DNA of 44,988 bases. It comes from a virus. Taxonomy: Duplodnaviria > Heunggongvirae > Uroviricota > Caudoviricetes. The translations under genes and the position numbers were made by a program. Location of the stretch: IMG/VR virus record IMGVR_UViG_643348544_000004. One strand, written 5' to 3'. Position 1 is the first letter of the stretch; every line of letters begins with the position of its first letter. The notes beneath the pieces are model-generated. The model searched no databases. It was given only the letters and a program-made list of their open reading frames with translations, and was not told the DNA's origin. Below, piece by piece: positions 4,435 through 26,716 of this stretch.

Positions 4435-4836
4435 CTTTAAAAAGGGCGGCAGAGCAGTCACGGAGTAAAACTGATACCGCCAAACGTCACCAGAAAATTG
4501 ATAACAGAGGGCGTTGCAGCGGGGTTGTCACTTAAGCGTATGGTCAACCTGACAACCCGGTGTCCTCAACGGGGAAGGAATAACCCCGCCATACTTACCG
4601 CCGCGCCATTTCGCGGGTTGCCACAACCGGAAGCGCACGGTCGACGAAAATTTAACGACAGGCTATCTATGAACCAGCTACCTCGCCGTGCGCTTTCGCT
4701 TTATGCCCTGACTTTTCAGGGACATATCCTTTCAGTAAACTGTCAGTGCCGGATGTTCACCCGTGTCCGGCGCACGCACTCCACCTGACCCGTGGAGAAC
4801 TCCTTAATTACCAACCTTAGCTTCGTTGGTTAGCTA

Positions 4837-12553: not shown

Positions 12554-12774
12554 GTTTTGATATTAATGTTTGGACATATAAATGCCCTTTTTTTAGGGGT
12601 GTTCATGGCGGTCATGTGCATTGAATACTGGCGGTAAATACAGCGAACGCCATTGGTTTAGTTGGATATTTACTGTGCCGGACAAAAACGGTTTGCGGGG
12701 AAATCTTAGTTAAGTAGAATAACTGCGGGTGCTTGAGGCTATCTGTCTCAGGCATGAACACCAAAAGGCAGATA

Positions 12775-12846
12775 GAGAAAAGCCCCAGTTAACATTACGC
12801 GTCCTGCAAGACGCTTAACATTAATCTGAGGCCATATCTATGCGAC
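12775..12846 (-). ncRNA. Predicted Sok-like antisense RNA of the hok locus
   Basis: Minus-strand promoter-like -35 TTGACC (12876-12881) and -10 TAATCT (12852-12857) with 18-nt spacer, directing transcription antisense to the hok leader; hairpin plus T-rich tract downstream; prediction only. Confidence 0.3.
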
Positions 12847-12899
12847 ACATAGAGATTAGCCTCTTACGGACCGAAAGGTCAAGGAGAAGCAGGCTATGA
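12840..12899 (+). CDS. Short mok-like leader ORF overlapping hok start (19 codons)
   Basis: ATG at 12840, stop TGA at 12897-12899 overlapping the hok ATG (ATGA); shorter than canonical mok. Confidence 0.25.
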   Translation: MRHIEISLLRTERSRRSRL

Positions 12900-17793: not shown

Positions 17794-17869
17794 GGCCCTT
17801 TAGCTCAGTGGTGAGAGCGAGCGACTCATAATCGCCAGGTCGCTGGTTCAAATCCAGCAAGGGCCACCA
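17794..17869 (+). tRNA. ileZ: tRNA with CAT anticodon, most likely tRNA-Ile2 (lysidine; ileX/ileZ-like)
   Basis: Cloverleaf folded by hand: acceptor GGCCCTT/AAGGGCC, anticodon loop CTCATAA, T-loop TTCAAAT, 3' CCA; close to remembered E. coli ileX. Confidence 0.75.
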
Positions 17870-17876
17870 TCACATA

Positions 17877-17953
17877 CCGCCATTAGCTCATCAGGAAAGA
17901 GCGCCAGCCTTCGAAGCTGGCTGCGCGGGGTTCAAGTCCCCGATGGCGGTCCA
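17877..17953 (+). tRNA. argN: tRNA-Arg (anticodon TCG)
   Basis: Acceptor CCGCCAT/ATGGCGG, anticodon loop CTTCGAA, T-arm GGGGTTCAAGTCCCC, 3' CCA; folded by hand. Confidence 0.65.
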
Positions 17954-17966
17954 TTATCTGCATCAT

Positions 17967-18043
17967 GCGTTGTTAGCTCAGCCGGACAGAGCAATTGCCT
18001 TCTAAGCAATCGGTCACTGGTTCGAATCCAGTACAACGCGCCA
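17967..18043 (+). tRNA. argO: tRNA-Arg (anticodon TCT)
   Basis: Acceptor GCGTTGT/ACAACGC, anticodon loop CTTCTAA, T-loop TTCGAAT, 3' CCA; folded by hand. Confidence 0.75.
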
Positions 18044-18532
18044 CACTTATTTTCCCTGGCTCGCTTTTGCGGGCCTTTTTTTTAAATGTCTCACAATTCA
18101 GACGGTTGACAGTTGTCTGTTTTGCGGGGAGTTTGTTAAAAGAAACTGGCATGGTGAATCCCCCTGTGCGGAGGGGCAATCAGCGAGTAGGTATATGGGA
18201 TAATCGCGGATTCAGGTGCTGGTACTGAATTCACCGGGAGGCACCCGGCACCATGCAATGGCACATAGCGCCACTCTCCAGCCCCTCTCCGGAGGGGCTT
18301 TCTTATGGACAAAAAAAGCCCGCGCTGGGAGACGCGGGCGGCAAGGAATAAACAATAAAACGTGAAGTAATATTTCAGCTGGCGAATAATACCCCATAGT
18401 AATCACTCTGCGCAACTGCGCGGTCTTTTTCGAATTGCGGGCTGTAGTCTCCCTTCTGCCATTGTCCTGTAACTTCCGGACTTCAGCCTGCTCCTTATCT
18501 GACTCACAACATTATCCCGCCCGGGAGGATTC

Positions 18533-23111: not shown

Positions 23112-23198
23112 ATGAGTGCTGAACTTATTCGGGCAATGGCATTTGCCATTCGTATTGTGGCCATTGCTGTTCTGGTCTGGGCAATCCGTTGGTGGTGA
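23112..23198 (+). CDS. Small predicted membrane peptide, 28 aa ([28 protein letters not shown])
   Basis: Manual translation; stop TGA 1 nt before Rz ATG. Confidence 0.3.
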
Positions 23199-23199
23199 T

Positions 23200-23667
23200 A
23201 TGAACCGTGTTCTGTGTGTGGTGATTATTGTCATGCTGGTGGCCTGTGGTGCGCTTAGTCTGGGGCTGAATCATTACCGTGATAACGCCATTACCTACAA
23301 AGCCCAGCGCGACAAAAATGTCAGAGAACTGAAGCTGGCGAACGCGGCAATTACTGACATGCAGATGCGTCAGCGTGATGTTGCTGCGCTCGATGCAAAA
23401 TACTCGAGGGAATTAGCCGATGCGAGAGCTGAAAATGAAACTCTTCGCGCTGACGTTGCCGCTGGTCGTAAGCGCCTGCGTATCAACGCCACCTGTCCAG
23501 GTCCCGTGCGTGAAGCCACCGGCACCGCCCGCGTGGATAATGCAACCGGCCCCCGACTGGCAGACACCGCTGAACGGGATTATTTCACCCTCAGAGAGCG
23601 GCTGATGACGATGCACAAGCAACTGGAAGGGGCGCAGGAATATATCCGTACTCAGTGCCTGAAATAA
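23200..23667 (+). CDS. Rz: Spanin inner-membrane subunit Rz, 155 aa
   Basis: N-terminal TM helix, coiled-coil-like remainder, embedded Rz1 in +1 frame. Confidence 0.75.
23435..23605 (+). CDS. Rz1: Spanin outer-membrane lipoprotein Rz1 (embedded in Rz), 56 aa
   Basis: [15 protein letters not shown] lipobox-like signal, Pro-rich mature region; entirely within Rz in another frame. Confidence 0.7.
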
Positions 23668-23865
23668 GTTTTGTTGATGCGCCGTATCGTCGCTGTATTC
23701 CCTCATTAACAGAGACCGCAGCCCGACAGGGAGACTCCTCTGCGCGAGTGTGCGGGGATAATCAAAAACGATACACACCGGGGTTTACCGCGTTAACGGA
23801 GCGCGGCGTTGTCCCCTCATAGTCGCCTGTCCGGTGCGATGGTGGAAGAAACCGGACTACATTGA

Positions 23866-23886
23866 AAATGATAACCATTATCATTT
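23866..23886. promoter_or_regulatory. Palindrome AAATGATAA-cca-TTATCATTT resembling a Fur box, in the Rz-to-terminase intergenic region (probable cos region)
   Basis: 16-mer AATGATAACCATTATC matches the remembered Fur consensus core AATGATAATCATTATC at 15 of 16 positions; alternative interpretation is an IHF or terminase site of cosB. Confidence 0.3.
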
Positions 23887-24119
23887 TTGCGGGTCCTCCT
23901 GGTGGGGTGGGCCTGAACACGGGGCGGACGGCGCGGGAAAAGGCGCATTTTTGTGATTTTATCGTCATCATCATCATTAGCGTAACTTGTTGTTTTTAAT
24001 GTGTTTAGCATTAAAAAGATGATGATTGTGGTTGATTTTTGTTCGACATCTTTATATGGCGGCATTTCTTTACAAAAAAAGAGCCACTTTTGTTCAGCGG
24101 TTTATGTGGAGGGATGTGA

Positions 24120-24596
24120 ATGGACGGCGAGCTGAAAAATATGAAGTTAAATATTAATCAACTGGCAGCCATTTCAGGTCTGCACCGGCAGACTGTTGCC
24201 GCCAGAATGGCGGATGTTCCTCTTGCACCAGGTAGTAATGAAAAGAAAAAAATGTATCTCCTGACGGATTTGATTATTTCGTTGCTGGAAAAACCACCGG
24301 CTTCCGAAGATGAAGAGATGAACCCACATGATCGGAAGGCATGGTATCAGTCCGAGCGCGAGCGTCTTAAATTTCAGCATGAAACTGTTCAGCTTGTGCC
24401 AGTCAGTGATGTCAGGCGGTCCTTTTCTGTCGTGGTGAAAGCGATAGTTCAGGTACTGGAAACCTGGCCTGACCGGCTGGAGAGGGACAGGGGGTGGACC
24501 GCATCACAACTGAATGAAGTACAGATTGTGGTTGATGAGATCCGCGATACACTGGAAAAGGCAGTCATTGACTGTTGTGATGAGGCCGATATGTGA
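24120..24596 (+). CDS. nu1: Terminase small subunit (Nu1-like), 158 aa
   Basis: N-terminal HTH-like region similar to lambda Nu1; GGAGGG RBS; stop overlaps terL start. Confidence 0.7.
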   Translation: MDGELKNMKLNINQLAAISGLHRQTVAARMADVPLAPGSNEKKKMYLLTDLIISLLEKPPASEDEEMNPHDRKAWYQSERERLKFQHETVQLVPVSDVRRSFSVVVKAIVQVLETWPDRLERDRGWTASQLNEVQIVVDEIRDTLEKAVIDCCDEADM

Positions 24597-26716
24597 ATCA
24601 GGTGAACGAGAGCCATAGCCGCGCATCCGATATCTGGCGCGAAGTGGCCTCGCTGTTTCGCCCACCCAGCCGGTTACCAGTAGCGGAAGCCATCAGGCGT
24701 TATATGCGGGTACCACGGGGAGCCAATACTTCCGGTCCGTGGGAGTCATCGCTGACGCCCTATATGATTGACCCCATTAATACATTATCAGCCCGTGAAT
24801 ATGACGCGGTGGTGTTTGTGGGACCTGCGCGAACCGGGAAAACCGAAGGGCTGATTGATGGCTGGATTGTGTACGGCATCATCTGTGATCCGGCGGATAT
24901 GCTGGTGGTGCAGATGACTGAGACGAAGGCGCGTGAGCATTCCAGAACGCGTCTTTCCAGAACGTTTCGCCACAGTCCGGAGGTCAGCAAGCGCCTCAGT
25001 CCTTCCCGTAATGACAACAACGTCCACGATAAAATGTTTCTTGACGGCTCCTTCCTGAAGATTGGCTGGCCGTCGATCACTGTATTTTCTTCTTCGGATT
25101 ACCGTCGTGTGGCGCTGACGGATTATGACCGTTTCCCTGAAAACGTGGACGGGGAAGGGGATGCCTTCACCCTGGCATCAAAGCGTACCACCACCTTTAT
25201 GTCCTCGGGGATGACCTTGGTCGAGAGTTCGCCGGGGCGGGATATCACTGACACCAAATGGCGCTGTGGCGGCGCACATGAGGCACCGCCAACAACGGGG
25301 ATCCTGTCACTGTATAACCGGGGAGACCGCCGCCGGTGGTACTGGCCGTGTCCGCACTGCGGGGAATATTTTCAGCCGGTGATGGATAACATGACCGGAT
25401 ACCGGAATAACCCGGATTTTGTGGCTGCCGGTCAGGCTGCCCGTCTGATGTGTCCGCATTGTCGCGGGCTGATTGCCCCTGAGCAGAAACGCGAACTGAA
25501 TAACAAAGGGATCTGGCTTCGTGAAGGTGAACGGGCGGTGGCGGACGGCAGTATCACCGGAACACCACGAAATTCCAGGATTGCGTCATTCTGGATGGAG
25601 GGGCCGGCTGCGGCGTTTCAGACCTGGGAACAACTGATTTTTAAACTGCTGGCGGCAGAAGAAGAGTATGAGCGAACCGGCAGTGAAGAGACCCTGAAAG
25701 CGGTGGTGAACACCGATATCGGACGCCCCTATCTGCCCCGTTCAGCCACGGAACAGCGTAAAAGTGAACTGCTTGAACAGCGTGCCGAGCCGTTTCCCCG
25801 GCGATCTGTGCCGGATGGTGTGCGTTTTATTGAGGCAACGGTTGATGTACAGGGCGGTAAAAATCGCCGTTTTGTTGTGCAGATCACCGGATACGGAGAG
25901 CAGGGGGAACGCTGGATTGTTGATCGCTATAACATCCGGCATTCACTGCGCTGCAGTCCCAACGGTGAAAGTCTGCCGGTTGATCCGGCGGCATATCCGG
26001 AGGACTGGGATTTGTTGCTGACGGATGTGTTCCATAAAACATGGCCGCTGGCTTCTGATCCGGATGTGCGCATGCGTCTGATGGCCATGGCGGTGGATAC
26101 GGGAGGGGAAGCCGGGGTGACAGATAACGCCTATCGTTTCTGGCGTCGTTGCCGGAGTGACGGACTGGGCAACAGGGTGTTTCTGTTCAAGGGGGATGGA
26201 CTTCGCCGTGACAGGCTGATTAACCGTACCTTCCCGGATAATACCGGCAGAAGTGCCCGCCGTGCCAGAGCCAGTGGCGATGTCGCGCTGTGGCTGGTTC
26301 AGACGGATGCGTTTAAGGACCGTGTAAATAATGCCCTGTGGCGTGACACACCAGGGCCGAACTATATCCACTTTCCCGACTGGCTGGGGCGATGGTTTTA
26401 CGATGAGCTGACCTATGAAGAGCGCGGCAGTGACGGAAAATGGCGAAAACCGGGTAGGGGAGCTAACGAGGCGTTTGACCTGCTGGTTTATGCGGATGCG
26501 CTTGCCGTTCTGCATGGTTACGAAAAGATCCGCTGGCCCTCCGCACCGGACTGGGCACAGCGGGAAACGTGGCTCGTCTTCCCGCAGGAGCGTTCTGGTG
26601 AAACGGTATCCCCGGAACTGACGGCCGGGGCAGAAAAACGCCGTCGCCGGAAGAAAAAACTGCGGACGGAGCGTGCGGAAGATAATCCATGGATAACATC
26701 AGGAGGCTGGTTGTGA
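24593..26716 (+). CDS. A: Terminase large subunit (gpA-like), 707 aa
   Basis: Walker A-like VGPARTGKTE near N-terminus; position and size typical of lambda gpA. Confidence 0.9.
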   Translation: MNQVNESHSRASDIWREVASLFRPPSRLPVAEAIRRYMRVPRGANTSGPWESSLTPYMIDPINTLSAREYDAVVFVGPARTGKTEGLIDGWIVYGIICDPADMLVVQMTETKAREHSRTRLSRTFRHSPEVSKRLSPSRNDNNVHDKMFLDGSFLKIGWPSITVFSSSDYRRVALTDYDRFPENVDGEGDAFTLASKRTTTFMSSGMTLVESSPGRDITDTKWRCGGAHEAPPTTGILSLYNRGDRRRWYWPCPHCGEYFQPVMDNMTGYRNNPDFVAAGQAARLMCPHCRGLIAPEQKRELNNKGIWLREGERAVADGSITGTPRNSRIASFWMEGPAAAFQTWEQLIFKLLAAEEEYERTGSEETLKAVVNTDIGRPYLPRSATEQRKSELLEQRAEPFPRRSVPDGVRFIEATVDVQGGKNRRFVVQITGYGEQGERWIVDRYNIRHSLRCSPNGESLPVDPAAYPEDWDLLLTDVFHKTWPLASDPDVRMRLMAMAVDTGGEAGVTDNAYRFWRRCRSDGLGNRVFLFKGDGLRRDRLINRTFPDNTGRSARRARASGDVALWLVQTDAFKDRVNNALWRDTPGPNYIHFPDWLGRWFYDELTYEERGSDGKWRKPGRGANEAFDLLVYADALAVLHGYEKIRWPSAPDWAQRETWLVFPQERSGETVSPELTAGAEKRRRRKKKLRTERAEDNPWITSGGWL

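What the first reader, a model, noticed from the sequence alone, without database searches (positions are those of the whole stretch)
23864..24119. Fur-box-like palindrome inside the probable cos region upstream of the terminase small subunit
AAATGATAA-cca-TTATCATTT (23866-23886) contains a 16-mer matching the core of the remembered Fur consensus at 15 of 16 positions. It lies in a 450-bp ORF-free stretch between Rz and nu1 that should contain cos, and is followed by ATGATGA-rich repeats (about 23950-24040). It may be an iron-responsive regulatory site or a packaging-protein or IHF site that happens to resemble a Fur box.
Basis: partly seen in the sequence, partly recalled or inferred. Interest (0 to 1): 0.4.

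Follow-up and report, generated by a model that had tools for sequence, protein, structure and literature searches.

The report
Fur operator abutting a lambda-type cos
The palindrome is a genuine-looking, top-strength binding site for the iron regulator Fur sitting 3 bp from the packaging-termination signal cosQ of a lambda-like prophage. It is the counterpart of the known Fur sites upstream of nohA and nohD in E. coli K-12, so it is a new member of a known kind, though its role in the phage remains unexplained.

Summary
A perfect 10-3-10 palindrome (23865-23887) matches the 19-bp Fur consensus at 17/19 positions, with none expected by chance. It scores 25.6 bits on a matrix I built from 12 validated K-12 Fur promoters, above every training site.

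It lies 3 bp left of cosQ (GGGTCCT, 23891-23897) of a lambda-type cos. The inferred cohesive end is GGGCGGACGGCG (23922-23933). The conserved TCATCATCATCA/GATGATGA repeats form cosB. TerS (DUF1441) starts at 24120.

Lambda, Qin and DLP12 carry the same element at the same place. The Qin (nohA) site, identical to lambda's, binds Fur by in vivo selection and gel shift. The DLP12 (nohB) cluster was predicted at 25.3 bits but not gel-shifted. nohA and nohD are about 10-fold derepressed in a fur mutant.

Of 73 distinct lambda-type cos sites, 34 have a Fur box of at least 15 bits, centred 13-15 nt from cosQ (0 of 2622 control windows). The box occurs with two unrelated TerS families. None of 15 cos sites without terminase genes has it.

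It is therefore not an IHF or terminase site and not part of minimal cos. The most likely action is iron-dependent repression or blocking of transcription entering cos and the terminase genes. No good promoter is evident here, so that step is inferred.

The parts
23116..23667 (+). Rz spanin gene, the last late-lysis gene before the non-coding gap (context).
   Evidence: ORF; Pfam PF03245 Phage_lysis, E = 3.5e-51.
23858..23888 (.). Fur operator, a cluster of overlapping Fur sites 6 bp apart. The core palindrome AAAATGATAA-cca-TTATCATTTT is at 23865-23887. The best 19-mer GAAAATGATAACCATTATC is at 23864-23882.
   Evidence: Searches give the sequence and repeat. The 17/19 consensus match has 0 chance matches. 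PWM scores: 25.6 bits at 23864(+), 21.3 at 23870(-), 9.7 at 23858(+). It sits at the same position relative to cosQ as the lambda, Qin and DLP12 Fur sites.
23891..23897 (+). cosQ (GGGTCCT), the packaging-termination subsite.
   Evidence: Identical to lambda cosQ at 48473-48479. Described as invariant among lambda-like phages (PMC4669245). Mosaic joints between related phages fall here.
23922..23933 (+). Inferred cosN 12-nt 5' cohesive-end sequence GGGCGGACGGCG, flanked by CG on both sides (23920-21 and 23934-35).
   Evidence: The alignment to lambda (CG|GGGCGGCGACCT|CG) keeps the left half identical and varies the right half, as PMC4669245 describes. Phage LLS has the same terminase type, and its record starts at an annotated cohesive end GGGCGGCGCGCT at the equivalent position. 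The ends of this phage itself have not been mapped.
23965..23978 (+). cosB element TCATCATCATCATT, a probable DUF1441-TerS recognition repeat (left arm).
   Evidence: GTCATCATCATCAT is invariant about 43 nt after the cohesive-end start in the window, VT1-Sakai, LLS and Klebsiella phage Kp4865-4. It is an inverted repeat with 24015-24026.
23983..23995 (-). IHF-like site (AAACAACAAGTTA, 1 mismatch to WATCAANNNNTTR) between the two cosB arms. This is analogous to lambda's I1 between R3 and R2.
   Evidence: The analogy to lambda's cosB layout comes from PMC4669245. It is inferred, not tested.
24015..24026 (+). cosB element AAAGATGATGAT, the right arm inverted relative to 23967-23978.
   Evidence: I3, 92% complementary. 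It is partly conserved (AAGATG..GA) in LLS and Kp4865-4.
24120..24596 (+). Small terminase subunit (DUF1441 family).
   Evidence: Pfam PF07278, E = 5e-49. Annotated as terminase small subunit in related Stx phages.
24593..26716 (+). Large terminase subunit (lambda gpA family).
   Evidence: Pfam GpA_ATPase plus GpA_nuclease, E about 1e-81 to 1e-84.

Best explanation
The palindrome is a real, high-affinity operator for the host iron regulator Fur. It sits at the extreme left edge of a lambda-type cos site, ending 3 bp before cosQ. It is the counterpart of the Fur sites upstream of the Nu1 homologues nohA (Qin) and nohD/nohB (DLP12) in E. coli K-12, and of an identical palindrome in phage lambda itself.

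When iron is sufficient, Fur dimers should occupy about 23858-23888. That would repress or block transcription that starts at the box, or passes through it, rightward across cos into terS-terL. Under iron starvation or loss of Fur this transcription would rise.

The box is an accessory element linked to phage terminase operons. It is not part of the minimal packaging signal.

Shown here: the sequence match, the position, the wide conservation and the association with terminase genes. Shown by others for homologues: Fur binding, and fur-dependent expression of nohA and nohD. Inferred: Fur binding to this exact sequence, the direction and mode of repression, and any benefit to the phage.
For: 1. 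Sequence strength.
- 17/19 match to the consensus, with 0 chance matches.
- 25.6 bits on a PWM from 12 validated K-12 Fur promoters. Training sites score 18.2-25.0 (13-23 leave-one-out), and the next unrelated position in the window scores 14.5.
- Overlapping sites spaced 6 bp apart.

2. Homology of position.
- Lambda, Qin, DLP12, VT1-Sakai and Stx1_9793 all show box, 3-6 nt, GGGTCCT, 23-24 nt, GGGCGG....

3. Experiments on homologues.
- The nohA fragment was selected in vivo for Fur binding and gel-shifts with 150 nM Fur.
- The nohB cluster is predicted at 25.3 bits, third strongest in K-12 (PMC2189734).
- The Qin sequence tested is identical to lambda's.
- In Fur+ versus fur- RNA-seq with iron, nohD2 is -3.21 and nohA -3.56 log2, alongside ent, fep and suf (PMC10219339 Table S2).

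4. Selection for Fur specificity.
- 34 of 73 distinct lambda-type cos sites, found by anchoring only on cosQ and cosN, have a Fur match of at least 15 bits within 45 nt upstream of cosQ. None of 2622 control windows does.
- The box centre is 13-15 nt from cosQ.
- There are 26 different 19-mers. The core is 85% identical between phages against 31% for the left flank.
- Their frequency matrix correlates with the K-12 Fur matrix at r = 0.91 in register.

5. Link to terminase genes.
- All 34 boxes precede a TerS gene: 20 Nu1-type and 14 DUF1441-type.
- None of 15 cos sites without terminase genes has a box (Fisher p = 1.9e-5).
Against: - No convincing sigma-70 promoter overlaps the box in this window. 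The tool's scan found none, and my scan gives only ACTACA-17-TATCAT, 8/12. The DLP12 type has GTGACA-16-TATCAT, 10/12.
- The RNA-seq evidence is confounded. NCM3722's intact lambda-like prophage is induced about 10-fold across its late region in the fur mutant, and reads may cross-map among the nu1 homologues. No ChIP peak is listed for these loci.
- An FNR study found only low promoter activity for the nohA/B upstream fragment (PMC1802558).
- No iron-related gene lies downstream, so the benefit to the phage is obscure.
- The tight 13-15 nt spacing to cosQ is not required by a purely transcriptional role.
- Fur binding to this exact sequence is untested.
Confidence: 0.62

Rival explanations
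1. Packaging accessory site. Fur bound 3 bp from cosQ acts as an architectural or 'speed-bump' host factor, as IHF does in cosB. It would help, or gate, terminase recognition of cosQ/cosN during termination, or shield the prophage cos from cleavage. Packaging would then be tied to iron status.
For: - The distance from box centre to cosQ is constrained to 13-15 nt across very different phages.
- The predicted Fur footprint (23858-23888) ends 2 bp from cosQ.
- The box lies upstream of cosQ in the direction terminase translocates.
- Lambda cos already uses a host DNA-bending protein (PMC4669245).
- The window has no good promoter at the box.
Against: - Cos sites lacking terminase genes, which are presumably packaged by helper terminases, never have the box (0/15). 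About a third of phage cos sites lack it too, including phage LLS with annotated ends and the Gifsy-1 reference.
- The published definition of lambda cos starts at the 7-bp cosQ.
- The tight spacing could simply reflect common descent plus recombination joints at the conserved cosQ.
Confidence: 0.15
2. Fur decoy. The single strong operator has no cis role. When the phage genome replicates to hundreds of copies, it titrates Fur and derepresses host iron uptake, which would help supply iron-dependent ribonucleotide reductase for phage DNA synthesis.
For: - The site is at the very top of the Fur affinity range.
- The nohA fragment was originally isolated by an in vivo Fur-selection scheme on cloned fragments.
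- The box is found in replicating phages but not in the terminase-less cos elements.
Against: - Nothing explains the fixed position next to cosQ.
- One site per genome gives limited titration against thousands of Fur molecules per cell (established knowledge, not tested here).
- There are no data on iron-uptake derepression during lambda growth.
Confidence: 0.1
3. RNA element. The palindrome followed by a T-run works as a weak intrinsic terminator or RNA hairpin at the end of the lysis-region transcript. This would parallel the strong terminators found at the same spot in other cos regions.
For: - The A/U-rich hairpin folds at -7.3 to -10.4 kcal/mol (z = -3) and is followed by UUUUU.
- Fourteen other cos sites have a GC hairpin plus T-run directly before cosQ.
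Against: - The stem has a single G-C pair. Boxes average -4.2 kcal/mol against -14 to -16 for the real terminators.
- The terminator scan did not call it.
- Variants such as GTGATAATCACTCTCAT lose pairing yet keep Fur half-sites.
- The conservation tracks the Fur matrix.
- Any DNA palindrome gives a low folding z-score.
Confidence: 0.05
4. Coincidence. The palindrome is a site for terminase, IHF or another protein and only resembles a Fur box.
For: It lies next to cos, where several protein sites cluster.
Against: - No IHF consensus overlaps it.
- It occurs with two unrelated TerS families and with TerL as little as 22% identical.
- The lambda/Qin version does bind Fur.
- Chance expectation is about 0.
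Confidence: 0.03

Closest known systems
Fur binding sites upstream of nohA (Qin prophage) and nohD/nohB (DLP12 prophage) of E. coli K-12 (Vassinova & Kozyrev 2000; Chen et al. 2007, PMC2189734), and the identical palindrome in phage lambda at 48452-48466
   Same: - Same position: the box ends 3-6 nt before cosQ GGGTCCT, then comes cosN, and the small-terminase gene follows about 190-200 nt after cosN.
- Same motif: 7-1-7 TGATAAT-N-ATTATCA with overlapping sites.
- Same score range: 22.0 and 23.9 bits against 25.6 here.
   Different: - The core sequence is TGATAACCATTATCA, against TGATAATCATTATCA and TGATAATTATTATCA.
- The left flank is unrelated. It lacks the perfect FNR box and the divergent DUF3950 gene (ylcI/ynfO) of lambda, DLP12 and Qin.
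- TerS is DUF1441, not Nu1.
- The right half of cosN differs.
- No good -35 element is present.
- Fur binding has not been tested for this sequence.
Phage lambda cos (cosQ-cosN-cosB)
   Same: - cosQ is identical.
[quoted passage not shown]
- cosQ-to-cosN spacing is 24 nt against 23 nt in lambda.
- cosB has inverted repeats around an IHF-like site.
- The large terminase belongs to the gpA family.
   Different: - The cosB repeats are TCATCATCATCA-type rather than lambda R sites.
- TerS belongs to a different family.
- The Fur box lies outside the published 200-bp cos definition.
Classical Fur-repressed promoters (ryhB, fhuF, fepA-fes, fecI and others)
   Same: The operator sequence and its multi-site architecture. 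This site scores as well as or better than they do.
   Different: - They overlap clear sigma-70 promoters of iron-homeostasis genes.
- Here there is no clear promoter, no iron-related gene and no sRNA. Rfam gives only a sub-threshold PrrF hit, driven by the Fur box that is built into that model.
IHF site I1 in lambda cosB (a host factor site inside a packaging signal)
   Same: It is a precedent for a host DNA-binding protein site being a conserved component of a cos region.
   Different: IHF's role in packaging initiation is demonstrated. No packaging role for Fur is known, and the box is dispensable in many cos sites.

Membership tests
E. coli Fur operator (Fur box) | Match to the 19-bp consensus GATAATGATAATCATTATC or the 7-1-7 motif TGATAATNATTATCA | tested here: met
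   17/19 at 23864-23882 and 14/15 at 23869-23883. Chance expectation is 0 and 0.14 respectively.
E. coli Fur operator (Fur box) | Weight-matrix score within the range of experimentally validated sites | tested here: met
   25.6 bits, against 18.2-25.0 for 12 training sites (13-23 leave-one-out). The window background has mean -20 and SD 7.7.
E. coli Fur operator (Fur box) | Array of overlapping sites or hexamers with 6-bp periodicity | tested here: met
   Sites at 23858, 23864 and 23870 score 9.7, 25.6 and 21.3 bits. The cluster type is as described in PMC2189734.
E. coli Fur operator (Fur box) | Direct binding of Fur protein to the sequence | not testable with these tools
   Known only for the homologue. 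The nohA site, identical to lambda's, gel-shifts with 150 nM Fur and was selected in vivo.
E. coli Fur operator (Fur box) | Iron- or Fur-dependent expression of the adjacent transcription unit | not testable with these tools
   For homologues, nohA is -3.56 and nohD2 -3.21 log2 in Fur+ versus fur-. This is confounded by prophage induction and possible cross-mapping.
E. coli Fur operator (Fur box) | Overlap with a sigma-70 promoter (classical repression geometry) | tested here: inconclusive
   No promoter passes the tool's threshold. The best candidate is ACTACA-17-TATCAT at 8/12. DLP12-type relatives reach 10/12.
Lambda-type cos site | 7-bp cosQ GGGTCCT about 23 nt upstream of cosN | tested here: met
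   23891-23897, 24 nt before the inferred nick. Conservation is stated in PMC4669245.
Lambda-type cos site | cosN: a 12-nt 5' overhang starting GGGCGG, with CG flanking both nicks | tested here: met
   CG|GGGCGGACGGCG|CG at 23920-23935. Related phage LLS has an annotated cohesive end at the equivalent position. This is a sequence-level test only.
Lambda-type cos site | cosB with TerS binding repeats and an IHF site, followed by terS and a gpA-family terL | tested here: met
   Conserved TCATCATCATCA/GATGATGA inverted repeats, an IHF-like site at 23983-23995, DUF1441 TerS and GpA TerL. The identity of the repeats as TerS sites is inferred.
Lambda-type cos site | Physically mapped cohesive ends of virion DNA | not testable with these tools
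   No virion data exist for this prophage.
IHF binding site | WATCAANNNNTTR consensus overlapping the palindrome | tested here: not met
   No match with 1 mismatch or fewer in 23840-23900. The only hit in the gap is at 23983-23995.
Intrinsic (Rho-independent) terminator | G+C-rich stem followed by a U-run | tested here: not met
   The stem has one G-C pair and folds at -7.3 kcal/mol, against -14 to -16 for terminators at the same spot in other cos regions. The scan did not call it.
Fur-regulated sRNA gene (RyhB/PrrF type) or known prophage sRNAs (Esr41, AgvB, AsxR) | Rfam covariance-model match at or above the gathering score | tested here: not met
   Nothing was found in 23600-24200 at gathering threshold. 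The only weak hit is PrrF at 15.9 bits against a gathering score of 90, E = 4.9.

The most novel reading that the evidence does not exclude
Fur is a conserved host partner of lambda-type cos sites. Iron-loaded Fur, bound 13-15 nt from cosQ, would gate what happens at the genome end. That could be entry of transcription into the terminase operon, access of terminase to cosQ/cosN, or protection of a prophage cos from terminases of co-resident phages. Virion assembly in many enterobacterial lambdoid phages would then be wired to host iron status. The evidence does not exclude this: the box is positionally fixed, is maintained across two unrelated TerS families, is absent from terminase-less cos elements, and has no obvious promoter in this phage.
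Probability: 0.2. Interest if true: 0.7.

Novelty: new member of a known kind. Interest (0 to 1): 0.42.

Why it matters
Two of the strongest predicted Fur clusters in E. coli K-12, at nohB and nohA, have sat in regulon lists for over 20 years. Chen et al. 2007 does not use the words cos, lambda or prophage, and I found no accessible paper that links these sites to phage biology.

This window, together with the survey, shows three things. These sites abut cosQ. Lambda itself carries one. About half of lambda-type cos regions in enterobacterial phages keep one at a fixed distance, including prophages in about 9% of complete E. coli genomes.

If Fur really acts there, iron availability is a key signal in the gut and during infection. 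It could then influence terminase expression or DNA packaging of Stx-type and other lambdoid prophages. The question can be tested directly in phage lambda with existing genetics. If Fur does nothing there, the site is still a useful annotation marker for the left boundary of cos.

Tried and rejected
- **Rfam, whole window at gathering threshold and the gap at E up to 10.** No RNA family was found in the gap. The weak PrrF hit only reflects the Fur box built into that model.
- **Known prophage sRNAs (Esr41, AgvB, AsxR).** They are not present here. The 'Pas sRNA' preprint matched my search only through the word 'further'.
- **Host range instead from named phages.** E. coli; Klebsiella phage Kp4865-4, which has the box; a Gifsy-1-like element with the box, although the Gifsy-1 reference itself lacks it. 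The query from L100 found nothing in the phage collection.
- **Promoter search.** Inconclusive, because the Fur box itself supplies -10-like hexamers on both strands.
- **IHF site at the palindrome.** Rejected.
- **FNR box as in lambda, DLP12 and Qin.** Absent from the window.
- **Leftward Fur-regulated gene.** Lambda, DLP12 and Qin have a divergent DUF3950 gene, but the window has only Rz on the plus strand and 200 bp of non-coding DNA. This cannot be the general explanation.
- **Literature.** No held paper contains both 'cosQ' and 'Fur', or 'Nu1', 'Fur' and 'cos' in a relevant sense. Vassinova & Kozyrev 2000 is not held. Supplements of PMC2189734 and PMC4676285 are not held. Fur ChIP tables of PMC10219339 list no peak for nohA or nohD, possibly because the sequences are repeated.

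Full report
**1. Where the window comes from**

The window is a lambdoid prophage of E. coli. The region 23600-24200 is 100% identical to a prophage in strain 20AR0479 and 93-96% identical to VT1-Sakai and several Stx2 phages. Around the finding, Rz (PF03245) ends at 23667. A DUF1441 small terminase starts at 24120, and a gpA-family large terminase follows at 24593. The 452 bp in between have no credible ORF.

**2.

- The sequence at 23864-23888 is gAAAATGATAAccaTTATCATTTTt, a 10-nt perfect inverted repeat with a 3-nt spacer.
- The 19-mer at 23864-23882 matches the Fur consensus at 17/19. It is the only site in 45 kb within 3 mismatches, and none appeared in 100 shuffles.
- I built a weight matrix from the best sites of 12 classical K-12 Fur-regulated promoters: fepA-fes, fepD-entS, fepB-entC, fhuA, gpmA, ryhB, sodA, fecI, fhuF, cirA, sufA and exbB. 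No prophage sites were used (loci).
- The window site scores 25.6 bits. That is above every training site (18.2-25.0; 13-23 leave-one-out). The next unrelated position in the window scores 14.5.
- Overlapping sites 6 bp to either side score 9.7 and 21.3 bits. This is the cluster architecture described for strong Fur operators (PMC2189734).

**3. The element sits at the left edge of a lambda-type cos site**

Comparison with the real lambda sequence shows the same layout:

| Phage | Fur box and spacer | cosQ | Spacer | Cohesive end | After |
|---|---|---|---|---|---|
| Lambda | gtaGATGATAATCATTATCACtttac | GGGTCCT | 23 nt | GGGCGGCGACCT | CG |
| Window | GAAAATGATAACCATTATCAtttttgc | GGGTCCT | 24 nt | GGGCGGACGGCG | CG |

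- cosQ is at 23891-23897 and the inferred 12-nt cohesive end is at 23922-23933.
- The cohesive end keeps the invariant left half and the flanking CG dinucleotides. It varies in positions 7-12, as the Feiss laboratory describes for lambda-like phages (PMC4669245).
- Phage LLS has a large terminase about 70% identical to the window's, judged from its close relative L054. Its GenBank record begins at an annotated 5' cohesive end, GGGCGGCGCGCT, at the equivalent position.
GTCATCATCATCAT is invariant about 43 nt after the cohesive-end start in the window, VT1-Sakai, LLS and Klebsiella phage Kp4865-4. An inverted GATGATGA arm follows, with an IHF-like site (23983-23995) between them. This mirrors lambda's R3-I1-R2 layout.

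**4. The same element is already a known Fur site, under another name**

- Qin (upstream of nohA) carries a palindrome-cosQ-cosN segment identical to lambda's. DLP12 (upstream of nohD, formerly nohB) carries a close variant.
- Chen et al. 2007 list nohB (25.3 bits) and nohA (22.3 bits) among the strongest predicted Fur clusters in K-12; nohB ranks third.
- The nohA fragment had been selected in vivo for Fur binding by Vassinova & Kozyrev (2000). It gel-shifted with 150 nM Fur. The nohB site was not gel-shifted.
- That paper never mentions cos, lambda or prophage.
- In a 2023 RNA-seq study (Fur+ versus fur-, with iron), nohD2 (DLP12) changed by -3.21 and nohA by -3.56 log2, together with ent, fep and suf genes (PMC10219339, Table S2).
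- That evidence has caveats. The strain's intact lambda-like prophage is induced about 10-fold throughout its late region. Reads may cross-map among the nu1 homologues. No ChIP peak is listed for these loci.
- An FNR ChIP-chip study also found FNR bound upstream of nohA and nohB, at a perfect FNR box that lambda shares. Promoter activity of that fragment was low (PMC1802558). The window has no FNR box.

**5. How general the element is**

I scanned IMG/VR using only a cosQ-plus-cosN anchor, GGGTCCT-N15-30-CGGGGCGG, so that the upstream sequence was not selected for.

- After removing G+C-rich chance hits and duplicates, 73 distinct lambda-type cos regions remained.
- 34 of them (47%) have a Fur match of at least 15 bits within 45 nt upstream of cosQ. 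None of 2622 control windows from the same contigs reaches that score. The score distribution is bimodal.
- The palindrome centre is always 13-15 nt from cosQ.
- The 34 boxes comprise 26 different 19-mers. The 15-nt core is 85% identical between phages, against 31% for the flank to its left.
- They occur with 15 different cosN right halves.
- Their position-frequency matrix correlates with the K-12 Fur matrix at r = 0.91 in register. Shifted registers give at most 0.64, and that only at plus or minus 6, the Fur hexamer period.
- All 34 are followed by a small-terminase gene: 20 Nu1-type and 14 DUF1441-type, two unrelated families. Large terminases are as little as 22% identical to the window's.
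- Cos sites with no terminase gene downstream never have the box (0 of 15; Fisher p = 1.9e-5). They often occur several per contig and usually have a strong GC hairpin and T-run directly before cosQ, so they look satellite-like.
- Some genuine phages lack the box too, including LLS and the Gifsy-1 reference. Klebsiella phage Kp4865-4 has it.
- Mosaic joints fall at cosQ or just left of the box. The window's left flank and box occur fused to a lambda-type cosN and Nu1 (Stx1_9793 and L025). The window's cosN type occurs with a terminator in place of the box. BP-4795 shares the left flank and then diverges about 10 bp before the box into a different packaging module.
- The exact box-cosQ-cosN type of this window is in 486 of 5426 complete E. 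coli genomes and is unannotated.

**6. What it most likely does**

The element is, with high confidence, a Fur operator. It is not an IHF site: no consensus overlaps it. It is not a terminator: the A/U stem folds at -7.3 kcal/mol, against -14 to -16 for real terminators at that spot. It is not part of the minimal packaging signal, because many cos sites lack it.

The best-supported action is iron-dependent repression, or blocking, of rightward transcription into cos and the terminase genes. Two things support this: the nu1 homologues next to the K-12 copies are derepressed in a fur mutant, and the box is found only where terminase genes follow.

This step is weak for the window itself. No sigma-70 promoter passes threshold. 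The best candidate is ACTACA-17-TATCAT at 8/12, whereas DLP12-type relatives have GTGACA-16-TATCAT at 10/12.

The fixed 13-15 nt spacing to cosQ, and a predicted footprint ending 2 bp from it, keep a packaging-related role open. Fur could be an architectural factor, a speed bump for the translocating terminase, or a shield. A decoy role during replication is also possible. None of these can be tested computationally.

**7. Verdict**

The element is a new member, in a DUF1441-terminase phage, of a known but poorly contextualised class: the nohA/nohD-type Fur sites.

Three points add interest. These sites are cos-adjacent. Lambda itself carries one. They are conserved across lambda-like phages but absent from terminase-less cos elements. 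I found none of this in the accessible literature, though that library is incomplete.

Noticed in passing
window 18120-18310 (+); 12727-12898 (+); 4444-4495 (-); 17794-18040 (+): Rfam gathering-level hits elsewhere in the prophage: STnc100 sRNA (139 bits), a sok antitoxin RNA (107 bits, implying a hok/sok-type module), DicF sRNA (77 bits) and three tRNA genes.
   Followed up: no
IMG/VR loci such as L008, L026, L032, L040, L078, L088, L115, L117 (several cos per contig): Many lambda-type cos sites have a strong GC hairpin and T-run terminator (for example GCCGGAGAAATCCGGCTTTTTTTAC) directly abutting cosQ, with no terminase genes downstream. They often occur two or three per roughly 10 kb. They look like satellite or PICI-type cos sites, or tandem elements, and none has the Fur box.
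   Followed up: partly
L003 2461-2484 (lambda 48360-48383); DLP12 and Qin equivalents: Lambda carries a perfect FNR box, TTGAT-GCAG-ATCAA, about 85 bp left of its Fur box. The sequence is identical to the FNR ChIP/EMSA targets upstream of nohA and nohB (PMC1802558). A leftward DUF3950 ORF (the ylcI/ynfO homologue) starts nearby. The window has neither.
   Followed up: partly
L261 655-700 (Gifsy-1 reference) and L037: Where other phages have the Fur box, Gifsy-1 has a different palindrome, ATTGTTA-tattg-TAACAAT, about 20 nt upstream of cosQ. It may be a site for another regulator or may be chance.
   Followed up: no
window 23891-23897 and homologous positions in L025, L258, L099, L257: The invariant cosQ heptamer acts as a recombination joint. 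The same left flank and Fur box are found fused to either lambda-type (Nu1) or DUF1441-type cos and terminase modules.
   Followed up: partly
window 24084-24100 (-): A weak terminator-like hairpin on the minus strand (CCGCTGAACAAAAGTGG followed by CTCTTTTTTT) lies just upstream of the terS start. The stem is 5 bp, and the one site found matches the 0.8 such sites expected by chance in this region.
   Followed up: no
window 23829-23857 (+): The hairpin GTCCGGT-N15-ACCGGAC lies immediately left of the Fur box. It appeared only as a chance-level miRNA hit in Rfam, and the pairing is not conserved in BP-4795.
   Followed up: partly
L003 2564-2569 (lambda 48463-48468) versus L005 (DLP12): The -10-like hexamer inside the box is TATCAC in lambda and Qin but TATCAT in DLP12 and most other phages. 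A box-overlapping rightward promoter, if real, should therefore be weaker in lambda itself.
   Followed up: no
PMC10219339 supplement, Table S2: In E. coli NCM3722, the whole late region of an intact lambda-like prophage near ybhA (ninI through the structural genes) is about 10-fold higher in the fur mutant. This suggests that loss of Fur raises spontaneous prophage induction.
   Followed up: no
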